Positions 19,421 through 25,896 of a DNA stretch of 64,000 nt are shown one piece after another. The DNA is from Pseudomonadota bacterium. Its GTDB lineage: Bacteria > Pseudomonadota > Alphaproteobacteria > Rhizobiales > Stappiaceae. The stretch lies in the NCBI GenBank assembly GCA_039195965.1, contig JBCCVB010000012.1, positions 1,172 through 65,171 on the forward strand, given 5' to 3'. Position 1 is the stretch's first letter; every line of letters starts with the position of its first letter. A model generated the notes under the pieces. That model saw only the letters and a list, made by a program, of their open reading frames with translations. It was not told the origin of the DNA and did no database searches. The translations under genes were made by a program, and so were the position numbers.

Positions 19421-19712
19421 GACATCTCACAGAAGCAAATTTGCAATTCGGCGGGAGTTTGCCCGCGCCGCGAACAGCACGCAAGAGGGACCGAAAAGTC
19501 TGGTTTACAGATCTTCACAAATTCCAGTCCAAAGCCATCGTGTCTCTTGTTCTGCAAATTCAGCGCAAAGCGTCATAGTTGCAATTTAGCAACATATTGT
19601 TGTATTTTAGCACCAACACTCATTGAGTGAGTATTTTCCCCTTGCACCTATGACCCGTTTCAACCTAAGACTTCGTCATCGGTCTCAAGACTGGTTCAGA
19701 TATCAAAGGTAT

Positions 19713-19728
19713 AGGCAATTTTCTTGCC
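19713..19728. promoter_or_regulatory. Candidate sigma54 (-24/-12) promoter
   Basis: AGGCAATTTTCTTGCC has GG-N10-GC with TT before GC. The site is palindromic, so its direction is ambiguous. Confidence 0.4.
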
Positions 19729-19790
19729 GCCCGCATGGTTCGGCATTGTCGTTTCCATGTACGGATACTGTATCAGAAGGTCGCGCGTAA

Positions 19791-19864
19791 TCGCATGAAG
19801 TTCATTGGTTGAACGCCAGGTATGTTGCCTGGAGGAAACAGGTTCGATTCCTGTCTTGCACGCA
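19791..19864 (+). ncRNA. tRNA-like unit 1 (pseudo-tRNA / tRNA mimic)
   Basis: D arm GTTC-attggtt-GAAC, anticodon arm CCAGG-tatgttg-CCTGG and T arm ACAGG-TTCGATT-CCTGT. Only 4 of 7 acceptor pairs form, there is no U33 and no CCA. Confidence 0.7.
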
Positions 19865-19938
19865 ACGGATAGCTCAGCTGGTAGAGCATCGGACGATTAA
19901 TCCGACGGTCGCGGGTTCAACTCCCGCTCCAAACGGCA
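19863..19938 (+). ncRNA. tRNA-like unit 2 (tRNA-Asn-like pseudo-tRNA / mimic)
   Basis: TA-GCTC-agctggta-GAGC, TCGGA-cgattaa-TCCGA, cggtc and GCGGG-TTCAACT-CCCGC. Only 3 of 7 acceptor pairs form, position 33 is G, and it ends GGCA. Confidence 0.8.
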
Positions 19939-19973
19939 AACCTATGGGTTCGGGTTCGACTCCCGGTCCGCCA
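19939..19973 (+). ncRNA. tRNA-like unit 3 (3' fragment: mini-hairpin + T arm + CCA end)
   Basis: AACC-tatg-GGTT, then CGGG-TTCGACT-CCCG, then gTCCGCCA. Confidence 0.6.
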
Positions 19974-20014
19974 TTTTATGGCAACAGCTTCAGGTGCTGT
20001 CTACAAAATTGGGA

Positions 20015-20295
20015 TTTGAAGAGGGCTTGTGACGGACCGGCTCTGCCTTTGCGCGACACGCACGAAGACAGGCCCGCCCTTCACCGGGAGCTCTTGTCCG
20101 GTCTTTGATCAAGGCCACGCCGCGTCGTCGCCGGGACTGTCTGTTCTCGAACGGGCACAACCTGCATTGATGCCGCAAAGCCCGCTGTTCAGAGATCCGC
20201 CGAGTGCCCTGCGCACTCTTCAGGTCTCCACATTCACACCCTCCGCCCTGTCTCGGGAGCGGTCGGTTTCCACCTACCTCCAACCCCTCTTTGAA
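20015..20295 (+). ncRNA. Putative ~280-nt structured non-coding RNA upstream of the SPFH gene
   Basis: The ends pair (TTTGAAGAGGG 20015-25 with CCCTCTTTGAA 20285-95; GACCG 20035-39 with CGGTC 20260-64) and enclose several nested helices. There is no credible ORF. Confidence 0.55.
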
Positions 20296-20344
20296 CAACG
20301 AAAGGACATGCCACGTGCCTTAGCGCAATGGAAGGAATATCGAA

Positions 20345-21505
20345 ATGATGGCTTTTCTTGATAAAATTCGCGGCCGCAGCCGCGTCGTGATCTACGAAAA
20401 CGAACGAGCGGTTCATCTGGTTAAGGGTGAACTGCAAGGCATTCTCGTACCTGGTGAGCACTACCTGAAAAATGGTAGGGGCACTCTGATGGTCGAGCGT
20501 CAGGACCTGACGATGCCGCTGTTCCGGTCTGAATATGAAAAAGCGCTTTTCGACAAGCTTCCCGAAGTCGCAGAAGAGCACTTGACCGTCGTCCGAACGA
20601 AACCGGGCGAAGTGGCCGTAGTGGAACGGGATCATCGCGTCTACAGGGTACTCGGTCCGGATCAGCAGCTTGTGCTCTGGACCGATGCCGGTCCTTGGAC
20701 ATGGACTGTCATTGATACAGCGTCTGAGCCGGAACTTTCCCGCAAGATGTTGCTTCGCCTCGGTGATGCAAAGCTGACGCAGCACTTCGAAGTCATCCAG
20801 GTGACCGAGGGCAGTGTAGCGTTGTTGTTCGTCGACGGCGTCATGACCAGGGTCTTGAACGCCGGTCTCCACGCTTTCTGGAAAGCCGGAGGAACAATGA
20901 CCAAAAAGCTCATCGACCTGAAGCGGCAGAGCCTTGACGTTACCGGCCAGGAAGTCCTGACGCTCGATCGGGTCACCATACGCATCAACCTGTCGGCCGA
21001 ATACCGGGTGGTAGATGCTATAAAGGCTGCCCAAGAGGTGAAAGACTTCTCCGACACGTTGTACCGGGCCCTGCAAATGGTGTTCCGCAAGCAACTCGGC
21101 GCCTTGAAGCTTGACCAGATCCTCGAGCGCAAAGGCGACGTGAACGCGGAGGCTGAAGCGTGGATCAAAACCGAAATGGCCAAGATCGGAGTTGAGGTCT
21201 TCGACATCGCCCTGAAGGATGTAATTCTTCCCGGTGAAATGCGTGAGATCCTCAACAAGGTGGTGACCGCAGAAAAGGAAGCGGAAGCCAACGTGATCCG
21301 GCGCCGCGAAGAAACGAACGCGACACGTTCGCTTTTGAACACCGCAAAGGTCATGGCCGAAAACCCGGTCATGCTGCGGCTGAAGGAGCTTGAGGCTCTG
21401 GAATCCATTGCGTCCAAAGTGGACCGCCTGACGGTTCACAACGGGACGAGCGGCCTGATGAACGATCTTGTTAGGTTACAGGATGAAAGCTCGGCAAAAG
21501 CCTGA
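20345..21505 (+). CDS. Slipin-family SPFH/band-7 protein
   Basis: SQLDVTGQEVLTLDRVTIRINL-like SPFH core and C-terminal RRREETNATRSLLNTAKVMAENPVMLRLKELE. Three N-terminal beta-rich repeats, no TM helix. Confidence 0.9.
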   Translation: MMAFLDKIRGRSRVVIYENERAVHLVKGELQGILVPGEHYLKNGRGTLMVERQDLTMPLFRSEYEKALFDKLPEVAEEHLTVVRTKPGEVAVVERDHRVYRVLGPDQQLVLWTDAGPWTWTVIDTASEPELSRKMLLRLGDAKLTQHFEVIQVTEGSVALLFVDGVMTRVLNAGLHAFWKAGGTMTKKLIDLKRQSLDVTGQEVLTLDRVTIRINLSAEYRVVDAIKAAQEVKDFSDTLYRALQMVFRKQLGALKLDQILERKGDVNAEAEAWIKTEMAKIGVEVFDIALKDVILPGEMREILNKVVTAEKEAEANVIRRREETNATRSLLNTAKVMAENPVMLRLKELEALESIASKVDRLTVHNGTSGLMNDLVRLQDESSAKA

Positions 21506-21564: not shown

Positions 21565-22113
21565 ATGAAAAACGACACAAAAATATCCAAGCAAATCTCG
21601 TTCTGGTTGAGACACAAACCGGAAGATGCCGGGTTGCGATTGACCAGTGACGGCTGGGTGCAGGTGAAAGAACTGCTAGGGGCATTCGACCGAACACAGA
21701 TGCCCTGCAGCCTCCAACAGTTGCAGCAGATCGTCGAGACCAACGACAAGAAACGGTTCGAGTTTTCCGAGGATGGTACTCTGATCCGCGCAAGACAAGG
21801 GCATTCAATCAGCATCGACCTGCAGCTGCCCCCAACCGAACCGCCGACCATCCTCTACCACGGGACAGCCACCCGGTTTCTATCCGGCATCCTGAAGGAA
21901 GGTTTGAAACCGATGAACCGTCACCACGTTCACTTGTCTGCCGATGCCGACACCGCTCGAACTGTGGGAGCAAGGCACGGCAAACCCGTTGTCTTGGTGG
22001 TGACATCTCAAATCATGCATGCGGCTGGCTTCGAGTTCTTCAAAACGGAAAATGGTGTCTGGTTGGTGGATCAGGTCCCACCGGGCCACCTGTCCTGCCT
22101 GGACAGCGATTGA
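21565..22113 (+). CDS. kptA: RNA 2'-phosphotransferase (KptA/Tpt1)
   Basis: SKQISFWLRH, DKKRFEF, RARQGHS, LYHGT, RHHVHLS and NGVWL. Confidence 0.95.
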   Translation: MKNDTKISKQISFWLRHKPEDAGLRLTSDGWVQVKELLGAFDRTQMPCSLQQLQQIVETNDKKRFEFSEDGTLIRARQGHSISIDLQLPPTEPPTILYHGTATRFLSGILKEGLKPMNRHHVHLSADADTARTVGARHGKPVVLVVTSQIMHAAGFEFFKTENGVWLVDQVPPGHLSCLDSD

Positions 22114-24110: not shown

Positions 24111-24356
24111 AGCCCCCTCACGGCAATTATGCAGCCCATAACGTATACACTACTTATAATTGAGCGAAATTGCACGCACTAAGTTAATTCCCGATATAGT
24201 TGCAAATTCAAGGTAAATTAATCGCAAATTCTCGACAGTGCCGGCGCAAGAAGCTGAGGTTTGCGGACAAACAATCAAAGTGTGACGTCGCGGCATTGAC
24301 CGGAACGACCGGGAACGGGACTATTTTCGCACCGATTGAGCAAACCGGGATATGTC

Positions 24357-25259
24357 ATGCGATTTCCAGCGGCCCGTCTTACCGATATGCACACCTGCCC
24401 GATGTGTGTGGGCGTTCCTGCACCGATTGCGTGGAAATGTGCATGGACGGTCTGGACAGGAAAAATGCCTCAGGCTCGTGTAACTGACCTGTGCGTTTGC
24501 GTCGGCCCACCACCTCCCATGGGCGGCGATCCAATTGTGACTGGCGCCTGGAATGTTCTGGTTGAAGGGTTGCCCGCAGCGCGCATGACGGATCTGACGC
24601 TGAAGGGCGGCGCGATCGTGTCCGGCTATCCAACCGTCCTGATCGGCATGCAAGGGGGAGGAGCCGGTGGTGCCGGGGCAGGCGGAGCAGGAGCTGGAGC
24701 CGGAGCCGGAGCTATAGGCAAAACGAATGTCGGCCCAGCCATCGTTGTAGAGGGAACCGAGGAATTCAGGGAAAAAACGGTCGCCGCATTGGCGAAGATC
24801 GGTCAAACGCCATCCGGAGCCAAATTGCTCAATGATCTGCACAATTCCGGCAAGACAATTACAATCAAGGAAACGTCAGGAGGCAACAAGGTCAATGGCT
24901 TCACTGCTGACGGTAAGGTCGATGCCAGCGGAAACCCGGGCTCAGGATCAGATTCAACGGTGCACTACAATCCGAACAGAACCACGCTCGGTCCAGACGA
25001 GCCCTGGAAAACCCGGCCTCCGGAAATAGGCCTCGCACATGAGTTGATCCACGCAAAGCATGCCGCCAATGGCGAGATAGATCTCTCAAAGGTTGAAAAT
25101 GACCACAAACCCGATCCATCCGACCCAACCAAAAATGCCAAGGTCATCAAGGAAGAAGCCAAGACGGTCGGCTTCCCACCCCATGACGGCGAACCTTACA
25201 GCGAAAATAAAATCCGGGACGAATGGGATCCCAAACAGCCACAACGGCCCTATTATTGA
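24357..25259 (+). CDS. PAAR-domain protein fused to an M91-like zinc metallopeptidase effector domain
   Basis: PAAR repeats (PAARLTD, PQARVTD, PAARMTD) with Zn-binding His/Cys, a Gly/Ala linker, then GLAHELIHAKH (HExxH), EE..TVG and SENKIRDE...RPYY. Start is ATG 24357 or TTG 24336. Confidence 0.85.
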   Translation: MRFPAARLTDMHTCPMCVGVPAPIAWKCAWTVWTGKMPQARVTDLCVCVGPPPPMGGDPIVTGAWNVLVEGLPAARMTDLTLKGGAIVSGYPTVLIGMQGGGAGGAGAGGAGAGAGAGAIGKTNVGPAIVVEGTEEFREKTVAALAKIGQTPSGAKLLNDLHNSGKTITIKETSGGNKVNGFTADGKVDASGNPGSGSDSTVHYNPNRTTLGPDEPWKTRPPEIGLAHELIHAKHAANGEIDLSKVENDHKPDPSDPTKNAKVIKEEAKTVGFPPHDGEPYSENKIRDEWDPKQPQRPYY

Positions 25260-25896
25260 TCGACGCAATTTATTGCTTGGCCTGATGGTTTTTGGCCTTA
25301 CGAGCAATTTCCAGAAGAAGGCGGCAGCAATGTCATCGTTCACTAATCAAAACAATGACATCACCCTGACGGCGCAGCTCCGCCAGGATGGGCGCTTTCT
25401 GCTTCTGGCGTATCAGGTGACCAACAAGACAGACAGGCTCGTCTATCTGTTCGATATCCTTCATGACGAATTTGACGGATCGGTATACCCGCTTATCGAT
25501 GCTTGCTATGCCACCATCGAACAGGGCCAACTTGTTCTGAGCCGGCAGATCATGGAGGTTCCGGAAGACACACTCACGGAGACCTTCAACATACCCTTTG
25601 TCACGGCAGTCAAGCCCGGTCAGACAATCGACAAGACCGTTAGACAGGTCCAGCCCGTCTATCCCTGGACACCCTATTCGGATCGGGATGAAATTCCGCC
25701 GGCAAGCGGCGTTCTGAACATGAATGCCTATTTCAGGATCGGATATTTCCTGGAGGCTGACGGCACAAGCAAACTTGCAAAGGCAGCCCCCACCGACCAA
25801 GGTTCTTTTCCCTCGTTCGACCCATTCCCGATAGAATCCCAAAGAACGCTCATGGTGGGACCGCTAGGGACCGTTCCGGTTTATGATCTGACCTGA
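25255..25896 (+). CDS. Hypothetical protein, candidate cognate immunity protein (start uncertain: 25255 ATT, 25285 or 25330 ATG)
   Basis: Directly follows or overlaps the effector stop codon. It has a protein-like body from MSSFTNQ. Confidence 0.65.
   Translation: MDRRNLLLGLMVFGLTSNFQKKAAAMSSFTNQNNDITLTAQLRQDGRFLLLAYQVTNKTDRLVYLFDILHDEFDGSVYPLIDACYATIEQGQLVLSRQIMEVPEDTLTETFNIPFVTAVKPGQTIDKTVRQVQPVYPWTPYSDRDEIPPASGVLNMNAYFRIGYFLEADGTSKLAKAAPTDQGSFPSFDPFPIESQRTLMVGPLGTVPVYDLT

What the first reader, a model, noticed from the sequence alone, without database searches (positions are those of the whole stretch)
19791..20000. Abutting array of tRNA-shaped units that keep D, anticodon and T stems but have lost acceptor stems and U33
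Units 1 (19791-19864) and 2 (19863-19938) have perfect D, anticodon and T stems, with canonical TTCGATT and TTCAACT loops. Their acceptor stems are broken (4/7 and 3/7 pairs), their anticodon loops lack U33 (TATGTTG, CGATTAA) and they have no CCA. Unit 3 (19939-19973) is a T arm plus a CCA end, and its TCCG could pair with CGGA at the 5' end of unit 2. A fourth hairpin, ACAGC-TTCAGGT-GCTGT (19984-20000), resembles another T arm. Intact stems combined with loss of identity elements suggest selection for tRNA shape rather than decoding, for example as decoys or substrates for anticodon nucleases, ligands for a CARF/WYL sensor, or Y-RNA-like scaffolds. The T arm-TTG(cacg)CAA-D arm junction between units 1 and 2 weakly resembles the permuted YrlA topology.
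Basis: partly seen in the sequence, partly recalled or inferred. Interest (0 to 1): 0.85.

Follow-up and report, generated by a model that had tools for sequence, protein, structure and literature searches.

The report
Band-7-associated tRNA mimics, KptA-linked
The two tRNA-shaped units are real, conserved, non-decoding tRNA look-alikes at the core of a roughly 650-base folded RNA in front of a cage-type SPFH/Band-7 gene; this RNA class was predicted in 2016 (b7a-tRNA), I found no experimental test of it, and here it sits with the RNA 2'-phosphotransferase KptA instead of the usual RtcB ligase.

Summary
Window 19791-19931 holds two abutting cloverleaves that Rfam's tRNA model detects (34.5 and 46.2 bits) and ARAGORN rejects.

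They are not decaying pseudogenes. In 25 Roseibium and Mesorhizobium orthologues, 96% of stem positions pair and 21 of 39 pairs show compensatory changes. A two-unit covariance model finds the same tandem pair upstream of homologous SPFH/Band-7 genes in 13 of 15 distant proteobacterial loci.

In 11 of those 15 genomes RtcB lies directly beside the Band-7 gene; the two operons I annotated also carry RtcA, RlaP and a divergent RtcR. [quoted passage not shown] The window holds an RtcB-less alphaproteobacterial version, and in Roseibium KptA/Tpt1 follows the Band-7 gene.

The units sit inside a larger RNA with covarying 5' (19679-19784) and 3' (20011-20228) domains.

"Anticodons" differ between orthologues. 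Unit 2 keeps a canonical 7-nt loop frame, and its triplet is the fastest-changing site of the RNA.

The YrlA-like permuted topology, the "CCA end" of unit 3 and the TCCG/CGGA pairing are not supported.

Verdict: a real new member of a known, untested class. Its function (RNA partner of a vault-like SPFH cage in RNA-end repair) is inferred.

The parts
19679..19784 (+). 5' structured domain of the RNA, closed by helix 19679-19684 / 19779-19784, with inner hairpins including GGCAA-TTTTC-TTGCC
   Evidence: RNAalifold on 22 Roseibium and Mesorhizobium sequences gives 25 pairs, 11 with compensatory changes. The segment is alignable across genera. The GGC..GCC hairpin covaries (GGCC/GGCC, GGAG/CTCC) and its spacing varies, so it reads as RNA structure, not a sigma-54 promoter.
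19791..19862 (+). tRNA-like unit 1: full cloverleaf (acceptor 19791-19797 / 19855-19861, D, anticodon and T arms) with a non-tRNA-like anticodon loop, TATGTTG
   Evidence: Rfam tRNA 34.5 bits. All four helices covary in 25 orthologues. The acceptor pairs 4/7 here and 6-7/7 in relatives. Loop length is 4-9 nt across the family and no loop equals a genuine tRNA loop.
19866..19931 (+). tRNA-like unit 2: D, anticodon and T arms with a short acceptor helix (C)GGA/TCC(A); anticodon loop CGATTAA
   Evidence: Rfam tRNA 46.2 bits. GGA/TCC is invariant in 25 of 25 sequences, and the T stem covaries (GCGGG/CCCGC against GAAGG/CCTTC). Its body is 75-86% identical to genuine tRNA-Lys and tRNA-Thr genes.
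19938..19965 (+). Optional module ('unit 3'): hairpin AAACC-TAT-GGGTT plus T-loop hairpin CGGG-TTCGACT-CCCG
   Evidence: Present in 9 of 19 aligned Roseibium loci; most others have a plain CCGG-N-CCGG hairpin at this place. A similar lone T-arm hairpin occurs in the distant locus L130.
19970..20000 (+). Two conserved hairpins: GCCA-loop-TGGC (19970-19982) and ACAGC-TTCAGGT-GCTGT (19984-20000)
   Evidence: Both are predicted with compensatory or wobble changes and with variable loops in Roseibium. Mesorhizobium has GGCC/GGCC and CACC/GGTG.
20011..20228 (+). 3' multi-helix domain closed by the 13-bp helix GGGATTTGAAGAG (20011-20023) / CTCTTCAGGTCTC (20216-20228)
   Evidence: RNAalifold on 19 Roseibium sequences (window 19924-20350, which also covers the hairpins above and the leader end) gives 82 pairs, 26 with compensatory changes. 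No Rfam family matches this region.
20302..20344 (+). End of the leader: conserved hairpin AAGGAC...GTGCCTT and Shine-Dalgarno GGAAGGA ahead of the ATG at 20345
   Evidence: Nearly invariant in 19 Roseibium loci. No terminator-like site conserved in relatives lies between the RNA and the gene.
20345..21505 (+). SPFH/Band-7 ('slipin') protein, 386 aa, soluble, with three N-terminal beta repeats, an SPFH domain and a long helix
   Evidence: Pfam Band_7 7.4e-30. PDB profile hits to stomatin cover residues 188-363. The AF2 model has pLDDT 80. Foldseek gives stomatin 2e-15 and major vault protein 1.7e-10 over about 450 aligned columns.
21565..22113 (+). KptA/Tpt1 RNA 2'-phosphotransferase, 59 nt after the Band-7 stop codon, on the same strand
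   Evidence: Pfam PTS_2-RNA 3.8e-53. E 5.5e-52 to the solved tRNA 2'-phosphotransferase 7kw8, with the LRH, R-x-QGHS, HGT and RHHVHLS motifs aligned. It follows Band-7 in 14 of 19 Roseibium, Labrenzia and Stappia loci.

Best explanation
Window 19791-19931 is the tRNA-like core of a single ncRNA or leader of about 650 nt (about 19679-20344). It is transcribed on the + strand ahead of, and probably together with, an SPFH/Band-7 gene and KptA. [quoted passage not shown] Shown here: the RNA carries two abutting non-decoding tRNA mimics whose L-shape elements are under purifying selection (D and T stems, the GG of the D loop, the TTCRANT T loop). Unit 1 keeps an acceptor/T minihelix, often followed by NCCA in relatives, but has a degenerate anticodon loop. 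Unit 2 keeps a canonical anticodon arm but only a stub of acceptor helix. Covarying 5' and 3' domains flank both units. The pairing of this RNA with this Band-7 family holds across Alpha-, Beta- and Gammaproteobacteria. Inferred: the RNA is the dedicated RNA partner of the soluble, major-vault-protein-like SPFH protein. Its tRNA-shaped modules would dock tRNA-recognising RNA-end enzymes, and perhaps broken tRNAs, at that scaffold. Those enzymes would be RtcB, RtcA and RlaP in the full operons and KptA in Roseibium. On this reading the locus is a reduced RNA-end-healing module. My confidence that it is a b7a-type RNA is about 0.9. My confidence in the scaffold or cofactor mechanism is about 0.4. 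The figure below blends the two.
For: Identity and structure: Rfam tRNA hits with no ARAGORN tRNA. Cloverleaf pairs in 11 Roseibium are 96.1% paired, with 17 pairs showing double changes against 5.5 +/- 1.7 in shuffles (0 of 500) and slid controls at 37-42%. In 25 Roseibium plus Mesorhizobium sequences the figures are 96.0%, 21 of 39 pairs, 110 compensated cells, and slid controls at 38-48%. Association: two abutting tRNA-model hits lie 430-500 nt upstream of the Band-7 gene in all 16 loci first tested. Model R1 matches at full length in all 79 Roseibium and Mesorhizobium loci searched (123-156 bits, including the window) and in 13 of 15 distant loci (50-109 bits), but only once in the own genome. 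Family context: RtcB is directly adjacent to the Band-7 gene in 11 of 15 distant genomes. RtcR, RtcA and RlaP are present and a TGGCAC-N5-TCGC sigma-54 site is readable in L141. This matches the literature description. A larger RNA: the 5' and 3' domains covary, and no terminator conserved in relatives precedes the gene. Partner protein: it has no match outside SPFH in sequence, but the whole-length fold matches major vault protein. KptA link: it is co-oriented with a 59-nt gap, conserved in 14 of 19 Roseibium-group loci, and KptA also lies in the Band-7-RtcB operon of G254. Non-decoding: anticodon identity is not conserved between orthologues.
Against: No binding between the RNA and the SPFH protein has been shown here, and I found none in the literature I could reach. 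The 2016 paper itself could not be read, so I know its claims only through a citing preprint and my memory of its abstract. In Mesorhizobium and two other alphaproteobacterial genomes the RNA and Band-7 gene stand alone with no repair enzyme beside them. So either the scaffold works with enzymes encoded elsewhere, or 'RNA repair' is not its core function. The fixed order of RNA then Band-7 gene fits a cis-acting leader equally well. The vault-like fold rests on a model built from a shallow alignment (24 sequences, TM about 0.4).
Confidence: 0.6

Rival explanations
1. Bait or decoy for anticodon nucleases. Unit 2 presents a genuine-looking anticodon stem-loop whose 'anticodon' is re-set as toxins change. 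It would either soak up or inhibit ribotoxins, or be cut and so signal damage (for example through 2',3'-cyclic-phosphate fragments sensed by RtcR in the full operons). The neighbouring enzymes would then heal ends.
For: Of 40 distinct unit-2 loops, 34 are 7 nt long, all 34 have Y32 and 32 have R37. Seven are identical to genuine anticodon loops of this genome (Met CAU, Asn GUU, Lys UUU, Leu UAG, Phe GAA, Ser GCU, Arg ACG) against 2.2 +/- 1.2 in position-preserving shuffles (P = 0.001). In 59 Mesorhizobium species position 34 is the most homoplastic of 596 leader columns (20 steps), and position 35 is in the top 2%. On the gene tree, positions 34-36 take 20, 14 and 10 steps against a mean of 4.6 for four-fold sites. 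RtcR's CARF domain responds to damaged tRNA fragments in Salmonella (PMC7790460, abstract).
Against: Only 18 of 34 seven-nt loops keep U33, and this window's loop, CGATTAA, matches no genuine tRNA loop of this genome. Terminal loops of the other hairpins also vary freely, so relaxed constraint explains much of the variability. In Roseibium the anticodon columns are not faster than four-fold sites. Recombination among Mesorhizobium could inflate step counts. The reference set of genuine loops is incomplete (37 tRNA genes from a 265-contig assembly). The alphaproteobacterial loci I annotated (window, L104, L144) have no RtcR beside them.
Confidence: 0.2
2. Purely cis-acting leader. The tRNA shapes would be RNase P, RNase Z or RNase E processing and stability signals, or a translational operator, for the Band-7 mRNA, with no trans-acting RNA product.
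For: The RNA always lies directly upstream of the Band-7 gene, on the same strand and within 200-500 nt. No terminator conserved in relatives separates them. A conserved hairpin lies beside the Shine-Dalgarno sequence. Unit 1 is often followed by NCCA, immediately before unit 2's 5' end, which resembles a tRNA-processing junction.
Against: About 650 nt with three separately covarying domains is far more than a processing signal needs. Unit 2's acceptor stub of 3-4 bp is probably a poor RNase P substrate (established knowledge, not tested here). The published prediction and the analogy with Ro/Y RNA modules favour a stable RNA partner.
Confidence: 0.15
3. Neutral debris: decaying pseudo-tRNAs or leftovers of integrase attachment sites.
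For: tRNA genes are common integration sites. The acceptor ends are imperfect in this genome.
Against: Stems are kept by compensatory substitutions in two genera. The same tandem architecture is found across three proteobacterial classes, always beside the same protein family. The site is syntenic and chromosomal in Roseibium, with SnoaL upstream in all 19 loci. None of the ORFs I annotated around the element (about 17.5-25.9 kb) is an integrase.
Confidence: 0.01
4. Genuine decoding tRNA genes, or a YrlA-type Y RNA bound by Ro60/Rsr.
For: ARAGORN calls one or both units as tRNAs in many relatives. The YrlA model gives a weak hit (25.4 bits).
Against: Orthologous units carry different or unreadable anticodons. 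Unit 2 lacks an acceptor helix and any 3' CCA. Unit 1's loops are 4-9 nt long. The YrlA score is far below the gathering score of 69, covers only the T and D arms, and the supposed permuted junction is really unit 1's acceptor strand. The genome's Ro60-like gene lies on another contig with its own YrlA-like RNAs, which score 50-62 bits.
Confidence: 0.02

Closest known systems
b7a-tRNA (band 7-associated tRNA) of Band-7/SPFH-RtcB RNA-repair systems, predicted by Burroughs and Aravind, Nucleic Acids Res 2016 (doi 10.1093/nar/gkw722), as described in Wang et al. 2018, bioRxiv 10.1101/312249
   Same: It is a predicted ncRNA that strongly resembles tRNA and is encoded next to a Band-7 domain protein. 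Homologues of this window's Band-7 protein (34-40% identity) in Beta- and Gammaproteobacteria carry the same RNA upstream and RtcB directly adjacent, and the two operons I annotated also have RtcA, RlaP and RtcR. As of the 2018 preprint the RNA was not validated experimentally.
   Different: This locus has no RtcB, RtcA, RlaP or RtcR. KptA/Tpt1 follows the Band-7 gene instead. Here the RNA is resolved as two abutting tRNA mimics with complementary defects, plus covarying 5' and 3' domains. I could not check whether the 2016 paper describes this, because the paper is not held.
YrlA / bacterial Y RNAs with Ro60 (Rsr), Rfam RF02553
   Same: These are tRNA-mimicking ncRNAs encoded in RtcB-type repair operons, proposed as cofactors or tethers for a scaffold protein. 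Both conserve the T-arm and D-arm elbow.
   Different: YrlA has a permuted tRNA-like domain and a Ro-binding helix, and it lies beside rsr. Here the cloverleaves are unpermuted, the YrlA model scores 25.4 against a gathering score of 69, and the partner is SPFH, not TROVE. The genome has a separate Rsr-YrlA-RtcB module on contig C8.
Eukaryotic vault particle (major vault protein, vault RNA, TEP1, PARP4)
   Same: It combines a cage protein built from N-terminal beta repeats, an SPFH-like shoulder and a cap helix with a small structured RNA and an ADP-ribosyltransferase-fold enzyme. The window's Band-7 model aligns with major vault protein over about 450 columns (E 1.7e-10), and KptA belongs to the ART superfamily (PMC9503650).
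   Different: TM-score is only about 0.4, sequence identity 12-15%, and there are three repeats against nine in major vault protein. No particle has been observed. Vault RNAs are not tRNA cloverleaves. This is an analogy or possible distant ancestry, not membership.
tmRNA tRNA-like domain and viral 3' tRNA-like structures
   Same: Both are non-decoding tRNA mimicry embedded in a larger RNA.
   Different: Those mimics keep a functional acceptor end that is aminoacylated. Here unit 2 has none and unit 1's is frayed in this genome. Rfam Tymo_tRNA-like scores 20.1 against a gathering score of 40, and ARAGORN finds no tmRNA.

Membership tests
b7a-tRNA / Band-7-RtcB RNA-repair system | [quoted passage not shown] | tested here: met
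   Rfam tRNA scores 34.5 and 46.2 bits against a gathering score of 29. The cloverleaf covaries.
b7a-tRNA / Band-7-RtcB RNA-repair system | Encoded adjacent to a Band-7/SPFH domain protein | tested here: met
   The Band_7 gene starts at 20345, about 410 nt after unit 2, on the same strand. The arrangement is the same in all 79 close loci (including the window) and in 13 of 15 distant loci.
b7a-tRNA / Band-7-RtcB RNA-repair system | RtcB ligase in the same gene neighbourhood | tested here: not met
   There is no RtcB in the window operon. The genome's RtcB homologues lie on contigs C61 (with PrfH) and C8 (with Rsr and YrlA). The feature is met in 11 of 15 genomes that carry the homologous Band-7 protein and RNA, so this locus is a reduced derivative of the family rather than an outsider.
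b7a-tRNA / Band-7-RtcB RNA-repair system | Homology of this RNA to the elements originally described in 2016 | not testable with these tools
   The original paper and its alignments are not held. Homology is shown only to RNAs in RtcR/Band-7/RtcB/RtcA/RlaP operons that fit the published description.
Decoding tRNA | A 7-bp acceptor helix with a 3' NCCA (or a site for it) and a 7-nt anticodon loop with U33 | tested here: not met
   Acceptor pairing is 4/7 and 3/7, there is no CCA, and position 33 is A (unit 1) or G (unit 2). ARAGORN is negative.
Decoding tRNA | Anticodon conserved among orthologues | tested here: not met
   At least nine different 'isotypes' or unreadable anticodons appear in orthologous loci.
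YrlA (RF02553) / Y RNA | Match to the family covariance model at its gathering score | tested here: not met
   The score is 25.4 bits against 69, over model positions 23-89 only. As a same-genome yardstick, YrlA-like RNAs on contig C8 score 62.4 and 50.3 bits over the full model length, themselves just under the gathering score.
YrlA (RF02553) / Y RNA | Permuted tRNA-like domain (T arm, acceptor-like hairpin, D arm) and an adjacent Ro60/Rsr gene | tested here: not met
   The inter-arm segment pairs with the 5' strand of unit 1, with 5 of 7 pairs compensated. None of the ORFs annotated around the element is a TROVE gene; the genome's only candidate is on contig C8.
Vault-like SPFH cage (working analogy for the partner protein) | N-terminal repeats, an SPFH shoulder and a long helix that align with major vault protein | tested here: inconclusive
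   Foldseek against major vault protein gives E 1.7e-10 over about 450 columns, but TMq is about 0.40. The model has pLDDT 80 from a 24-sequence alignment.

The most novel reading that the evidence does not exclude
Unit 2 is a re-settable anticodon-loop mimic. Its stem, 7-nt frame, Y32 and R37 are held fixed, while the triplet (and often U33) switches repeatedly between copies or near-copies of genuine anticodon loops (Met, Asn, Leu, Lys, Phe, Ser, Arg). That makes it the fastest-changing site of a 650-nt RNA. The RNA would then be a bait or competitive inhibitor for anticodon nucleases, mounted on a vault-like SPFH cage. In the RtcB-less Roseibium version, KptA would be the resident enzyme, which would give bacterial KptA/Tpt1 a physiological RNA partner for the first time.
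Probability: 0.15. Interest if true: 0.85.

Novelty: new member of a known kind. Interest (0 to 1): 0.5.

Why it matters
The b7a-tRNA/Band-7 module is a comparative-genomics prediction from 2016. I found no experimental follow-up in the searchable literature: only one citing preprint mentions it.

This locus helps in three ways.

- **A minimal test bed.** It is a stripped-down version (RNA, SPFH protein, KptA) in cultivable marine Alphaproteobacteria. For example, the Roseibium aggregatum IAM 12614 and R. album CECT 5095 loci carry all three parts. That makes it a simple system for asking what the RNA and the cage-type protein do without the ligase.
- **A candidate partner for bacterial KptA.** From my own knowledge, the physiological substrate of bacterial KptA/Tpt1 is an open question. 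A conserved operon partner that is a tRNA mimic is a concrete candidate to test.
- **Annotation.** ARAGORN calls these units as tRNA-Thr, Asn, Leu, Met and others in many genomes, so tRNA finders may mis-call them as tRNA genes and inflate tRNA inventories.

If the SPFH protein really forms a vault-like shell around this RNA, that would bear on the origin of eukaryotic vaults.

Tried and rejected
1. **Long-range pairing of T arm 2 with the downstream GGGAYYTGAAG motif.** RNAalifold proposed this on a truncated alignment. I rejected it. T stem 2 itself covaries (GCGGG/CCCGC against GAAGG/CCTTC), and with the full leader the motif pairs with CTCTTCAGGTCTC to close the 3' domain.
2. **A sigma-54 promoter at AGGCAATTTTCTTGCC (19713-19728).** I rejected this as the main reading. 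The GG-to-GC spacing varies between relatives, Mesorhizobium has TC instead of GC at the second element, and the segment is a covarying hairpin inside the 5' domain. Real TGGCAC-N5-TCGC sites occur further upstream in the RtcR-linked relatives. The window's promoter was not found.
3. **A kissing interaction between the variable anticodon loops and other parts of the RNA.** Complementarity of a species' own loop is no better than that of loops from other species.
4. **G3:U70 (alanine identity) in unit 1.** It is seen in some Mesorhizobium and Roseibium loci only (GU 9, AU 8, GC 7 of 25), so it is not a family feature.
5. **Positive selection on the anticodon.** The step counts exceed four-fold sites in Mesorhizobium but not in Roseibium, and recombination and codon bias confound the comparison. 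I report this as hypervariability, not proven selection.
7. **The 2016 paper.** Not held under its DOI or PMC id.
8. **A whole-genome TROVE search.** It returned nothing, but this was a false negative. A Ro60-like ORF on contig C8 scores vWA_Ro60 5.9e-16 and TROVE 25.4 bits.
Full report
**What is in the sequence**

Window 19791-19931 on the + strand holds two abutting cloverleaves. Rfam's tRNA model matches both above its gathering score of 29. Unit 1 (19793-19859) scores 34.5 bits and unit 2 (19867-19930) scores 46.2 bits. Both alignments stop short of the acceptor ends. ARAGORN calls only the genuine tRNA-Met at 939-1015.

The D, anticodon and T stems are perfect. The T loops are TTCGATT and TTCAACT, and both D loops keep GG. 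The acceptor helices pair 4/7 and 3/7. The anticodon loops are TATGTTG and CGATTAA, without U33. No CCA follows.

**It is under selection, not decaying**

BLASTN found syntenic copies in ten other genomes of the same genus. A protein-guided scan named the genus as Roseibium (with Labrenzia and Stappia) and added 60 Mesorhizobium loci.

| Test set | Stem cells paired | Pairs with changes on both sides | Slid-partner controls |
|---|---|---|---|
| 11 Roseibium sequences | 96.1% | 17, against 5.5 +/- 1.7 in shuffles (0 of 500 reach it) | 37-42% paired |
| 25 Roseibium plus Mesorhizobium sequences | 96.0% | 21 of 39, covering 110 compensated cells | 38-48% paired |

Every helix of both units is supported. 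This includes unit 1's 7-bp acceptor stem (5 of 7 pairs compensated) and unit 2's T stem (GCGGG/CCCGC against GAAGG/CCTTC).

The weak acceptor stem of unit 1 is therefore particular to this genome. Its closest relative, L033, pairs 6/7. Unit 2 has only an invariant GGA/TCC stub, plus a T-A pair in some Alphaproteobacteria. In several Beta- and Gammaproteobacteria it has six pairs (GTTCGA/TCGAAC).

**It does not decode**

ARAGORN reads orthologous units as Thr, Asn, Leu, Met, Ser, Arg, Lys, Pro, Gln or "undetermined". In an alignment of 91 loci to the model, unit 1's loop is 4-9 nt long and never resembles a genuine anticodon loop.

Unit 2 differs. Of 40 distinct loops, 34 are 7 nt long. All 34 have a pyrimidine at position 32, 32 have a purine at 37, and only 18 have U33. 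Seven are identical to genuine anticodon loops of this genome, against 2.2 +/- 1.2 in position-preserving shuffles (P = 0.001).

In 59 Mesorhizobium species, position 34 of unit 2 is the most homoplastic of 596 leader columns: 20 parsimony steps on a tree built from the leader itself. Position 35 is in the top 2%. In Roseibium these columns are no faster than four-fold degenerate sites. Terminal loops of the other hairpins vary too, and I found no co-evolving partner for the loops. I therefore report hypervariability within a conserved loop frame, not proven diversifying selection.

**What it belongs to**

Downstream on the same strand lie an SPFH/Band-7 gene (20345-21505; Pfam 7.4e-30) and KptA/Tpt1 (21565-22113; Pfam 3.8e-53; E 5.5e-52 to the solved structure 7kw8).

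The full-length Band-7 family occurs in 20 of 401 sampled Pseudomonadota genomes. I built a covariance model of the two units, R1, with 147 positions. It matches at full length directly upstream of the Band-7 gene in all 79 Roseibium and Mesorhizobium loci searched, including the window (123-156 bits). It does the same in 13 of 15 distant loci where the protein is only 34-40% identical (50-109 bits). In the window's own genome the locus itself scores 145.7 bits. The next best hits, which look like ordinary single tRNA genes, reach at most 58.8 bits.

In 11 of the 15 distant genomes RtcB lies directly beside the Band-7 gene. The two operons I annotated read RtcR (divergent), a TGGCAC-N5-TCGC sigma-54 site, the RNA, Band-7, RtcB, and then RtcA and RlaP.

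This fits the system that Wang et al. [quoted passage not shown] I could not obtain the 2016 paper itself. No other paper in the library mentions the term.

**How this locus differs**

The alphaproteobacterial versions have lost the ligase operon. In Mesorhizobium, and in G404 (same class), the RNA and Band-7 gene stand alone among unrelated genes.

In Roseibium, Labrenzia and Stappia, KptA follows the Band-7 gene in 14 of 19 loci, at a syntenic chromosomal site with SnoaL upstream in all 19. KptA also sits in the Band-7-RtcB operon of one distant genome, G254. The link therefore recurs.

**The units are part of a larger RNA**

The whole interval from about 19679 to the start codon is alignable between Roseibium and Mesorhizobium.

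- A 5' domain (19679-19784) has 25 predicted pairs, 11 with compensatory changes.
- A 3' domain is closed by a 13-bp helix (20011-20023 with 20216-20228). In the alignment from the end of unit 2 to the start codon (window 19924-20350), 82 pairs are predicted and 26 are compensated.
- Between the tRNA-like units and the 3' domain lie an optional module and two conserved hairpins.

It is present in 9 of 19 aligned Roseibium loci and replaced by a plain hairpin in most others.

The proposed TCCG/CGGA pairing has no support in relatives. No terminator conserved in relatives separates the RNA from the gene, so co-transcription is likely. No Rfam family covers the flanking domains.

**Not a Y RNA**

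The YrlA model gives 25.4 bits against a gathering score of 69, and covers only the T and D arms. The supposed permuted junction is unit 1's acceptor 3' strand.

The same genome supplies a yardstick on contig C8. A Ro60-like gene (vWA_Ro60 5.9e-16; TROVE 25.4 bits) is followed by YrlA-like RNAs scoring 62.4, 50.3 and 29.3 bits, still under the gathering score, and then by an RtcB split into two frames. An RtcB-PrfH pair lies on contig C61. The six-frame TROVE search had missed the Ro60-like gene.

**The partner protein**

The Band-7 protein has no transmembrane segment that I could see. It has three N-terminal beta repeats, an SPFH domain and a long helix (AF2 model, pLDDT 80). By sequence only residues 188-363 match solved structures, and those are stomatins.

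By fold, stomatin is the best match (E 2e-15, about 246 aligned columns). Major vault protein aligns over about 450 columns (E 1.7e-10, TMq about 0.40). This supports, weakly, a vault-like architecture.

**How it most likely works**

Shown: a conserved RNA of about 650 nt with two non-decoding tRNA mimics is tied to this SPFH family across three proteobacterial classes. It usually sits in RtcB repair operons and here sits with KptA.

Inferred: the RNA is the dedicated partner of a soluble cage-type SPFH protein. Its tRNA-shaped modules would dock tRNA-recognising end-processing enzymes (RtcB, RtcA and RlaP, or KptA), and perhaps broken tRNAs. Unit 1 offers an acceptor/T minihelix, with NCCA in many relatives. 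Unit 2 offers the elbow and anticodon arm.

Rivals:

- An anticodon-nuclease bait or decoy (some support from unit 2's loop statistics).
- A purely cis-acting processing or stability leader (fits the fixed gene order).
- Neutral debris, genuine tRNAs or a Y RNA (all rejected by the tests above).

**Earlier notes of this scan**

These are AI notes, not independent evidence. They file many similar loci under the same 2016 prediction. Only the first-reader note on this same locus mentions KptA.

**Verdict**

This is a new member of a known, predicted and untested class, in an RtcB-less, KptA-linked operon variant. The new angles are moderately interesting: a possible KptA partner, the re-settable unit 2 loop, and the vault-like cage.

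Noticed in passing
own genome, contig C8:74507-78270 (locus L145:508-4271), outside the window: A second RNA-repair module. A Ro60/Rsr-like gene (vWA_Ro60 5.9e-16, TROVE 25.4 bits) is followed by two or three tandem YrlA-like RNAs (62.4, 50.3 and 29.3 bits, just under the gathering score of 69) and then by an RtcB split into two reading frames (291 and 116 aa). A CI/LexA-like repressor ORF lies nearby, so it may sit on a prophage. The six-frame TROVE search of the genome had missed it.
   Followed up: partly
own genome, contig C61:2946-4783 (locus L146), outside the window: An RtcB homologue (398 aa, Pfam 2.4e-55) overlaps by 4 nt a release-factor-H-like gene (RF-1 domain, GGQ motif). This is the RtcB-PrfH pair type.
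   Followed up: partly
window 24336-25896: A PAAR-Peptidase_M91 fusion protein (PAAR 2.6e-15, M91 1.9e-29) has an overlapping downstream 267-aa ORF with no Pfam match, possibly an immunity gene. I annotated no T6SS structural genes in the 17.5-25.9 kb stretch I examined.
   Followed up: no
loci L053-L112 (Mesorhizobium), unit 2 anticodon loop: Among 59 species the loop takes 19 forms. Three dominate and equal or resemble genuine tRNA loops: CTCATAA (19 times; equals Met CAU), TTGTTAA (12 times; resembles Asn GUU) and TTTAGGT (7 times; equals Leu UAG). They are scattered over the tree (20 steps at position 34), which suggests repeated switching or recombination between a few preferred states.
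   Followed up: partly
loci L033-L112: ARAGORN calls one or both b7a units as tRNA genes in most relatives (for example tRNA-Thr(tgt), tRNA-Asn(gtt), tRNA-Leu(tag), tRNA-Met(cat)). Public annotations of these genomes may therefore list spurious tRNA genes at this locus.
   Followed up: no
window 19578-19593: The palindrome GTTGCAATTTAGCAAC lies in the 924-nt intergenic region between the divergent SnoaL gene and the RNA, upstream of the conserved 5' domain. It could be an operator or part of the still unidentified promoter.
   Followed up: no
L130 (G218) and L131/L132: In some distant relatives the order is RtcB, RNA, Band-7, and the RNA there has one cloverleaf plus a lone T-arm hairpin. In others the Band-7 ORF is much longer (555-665 aa open frame), apparently with extra N-terminal repeats.
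   Followed up: no
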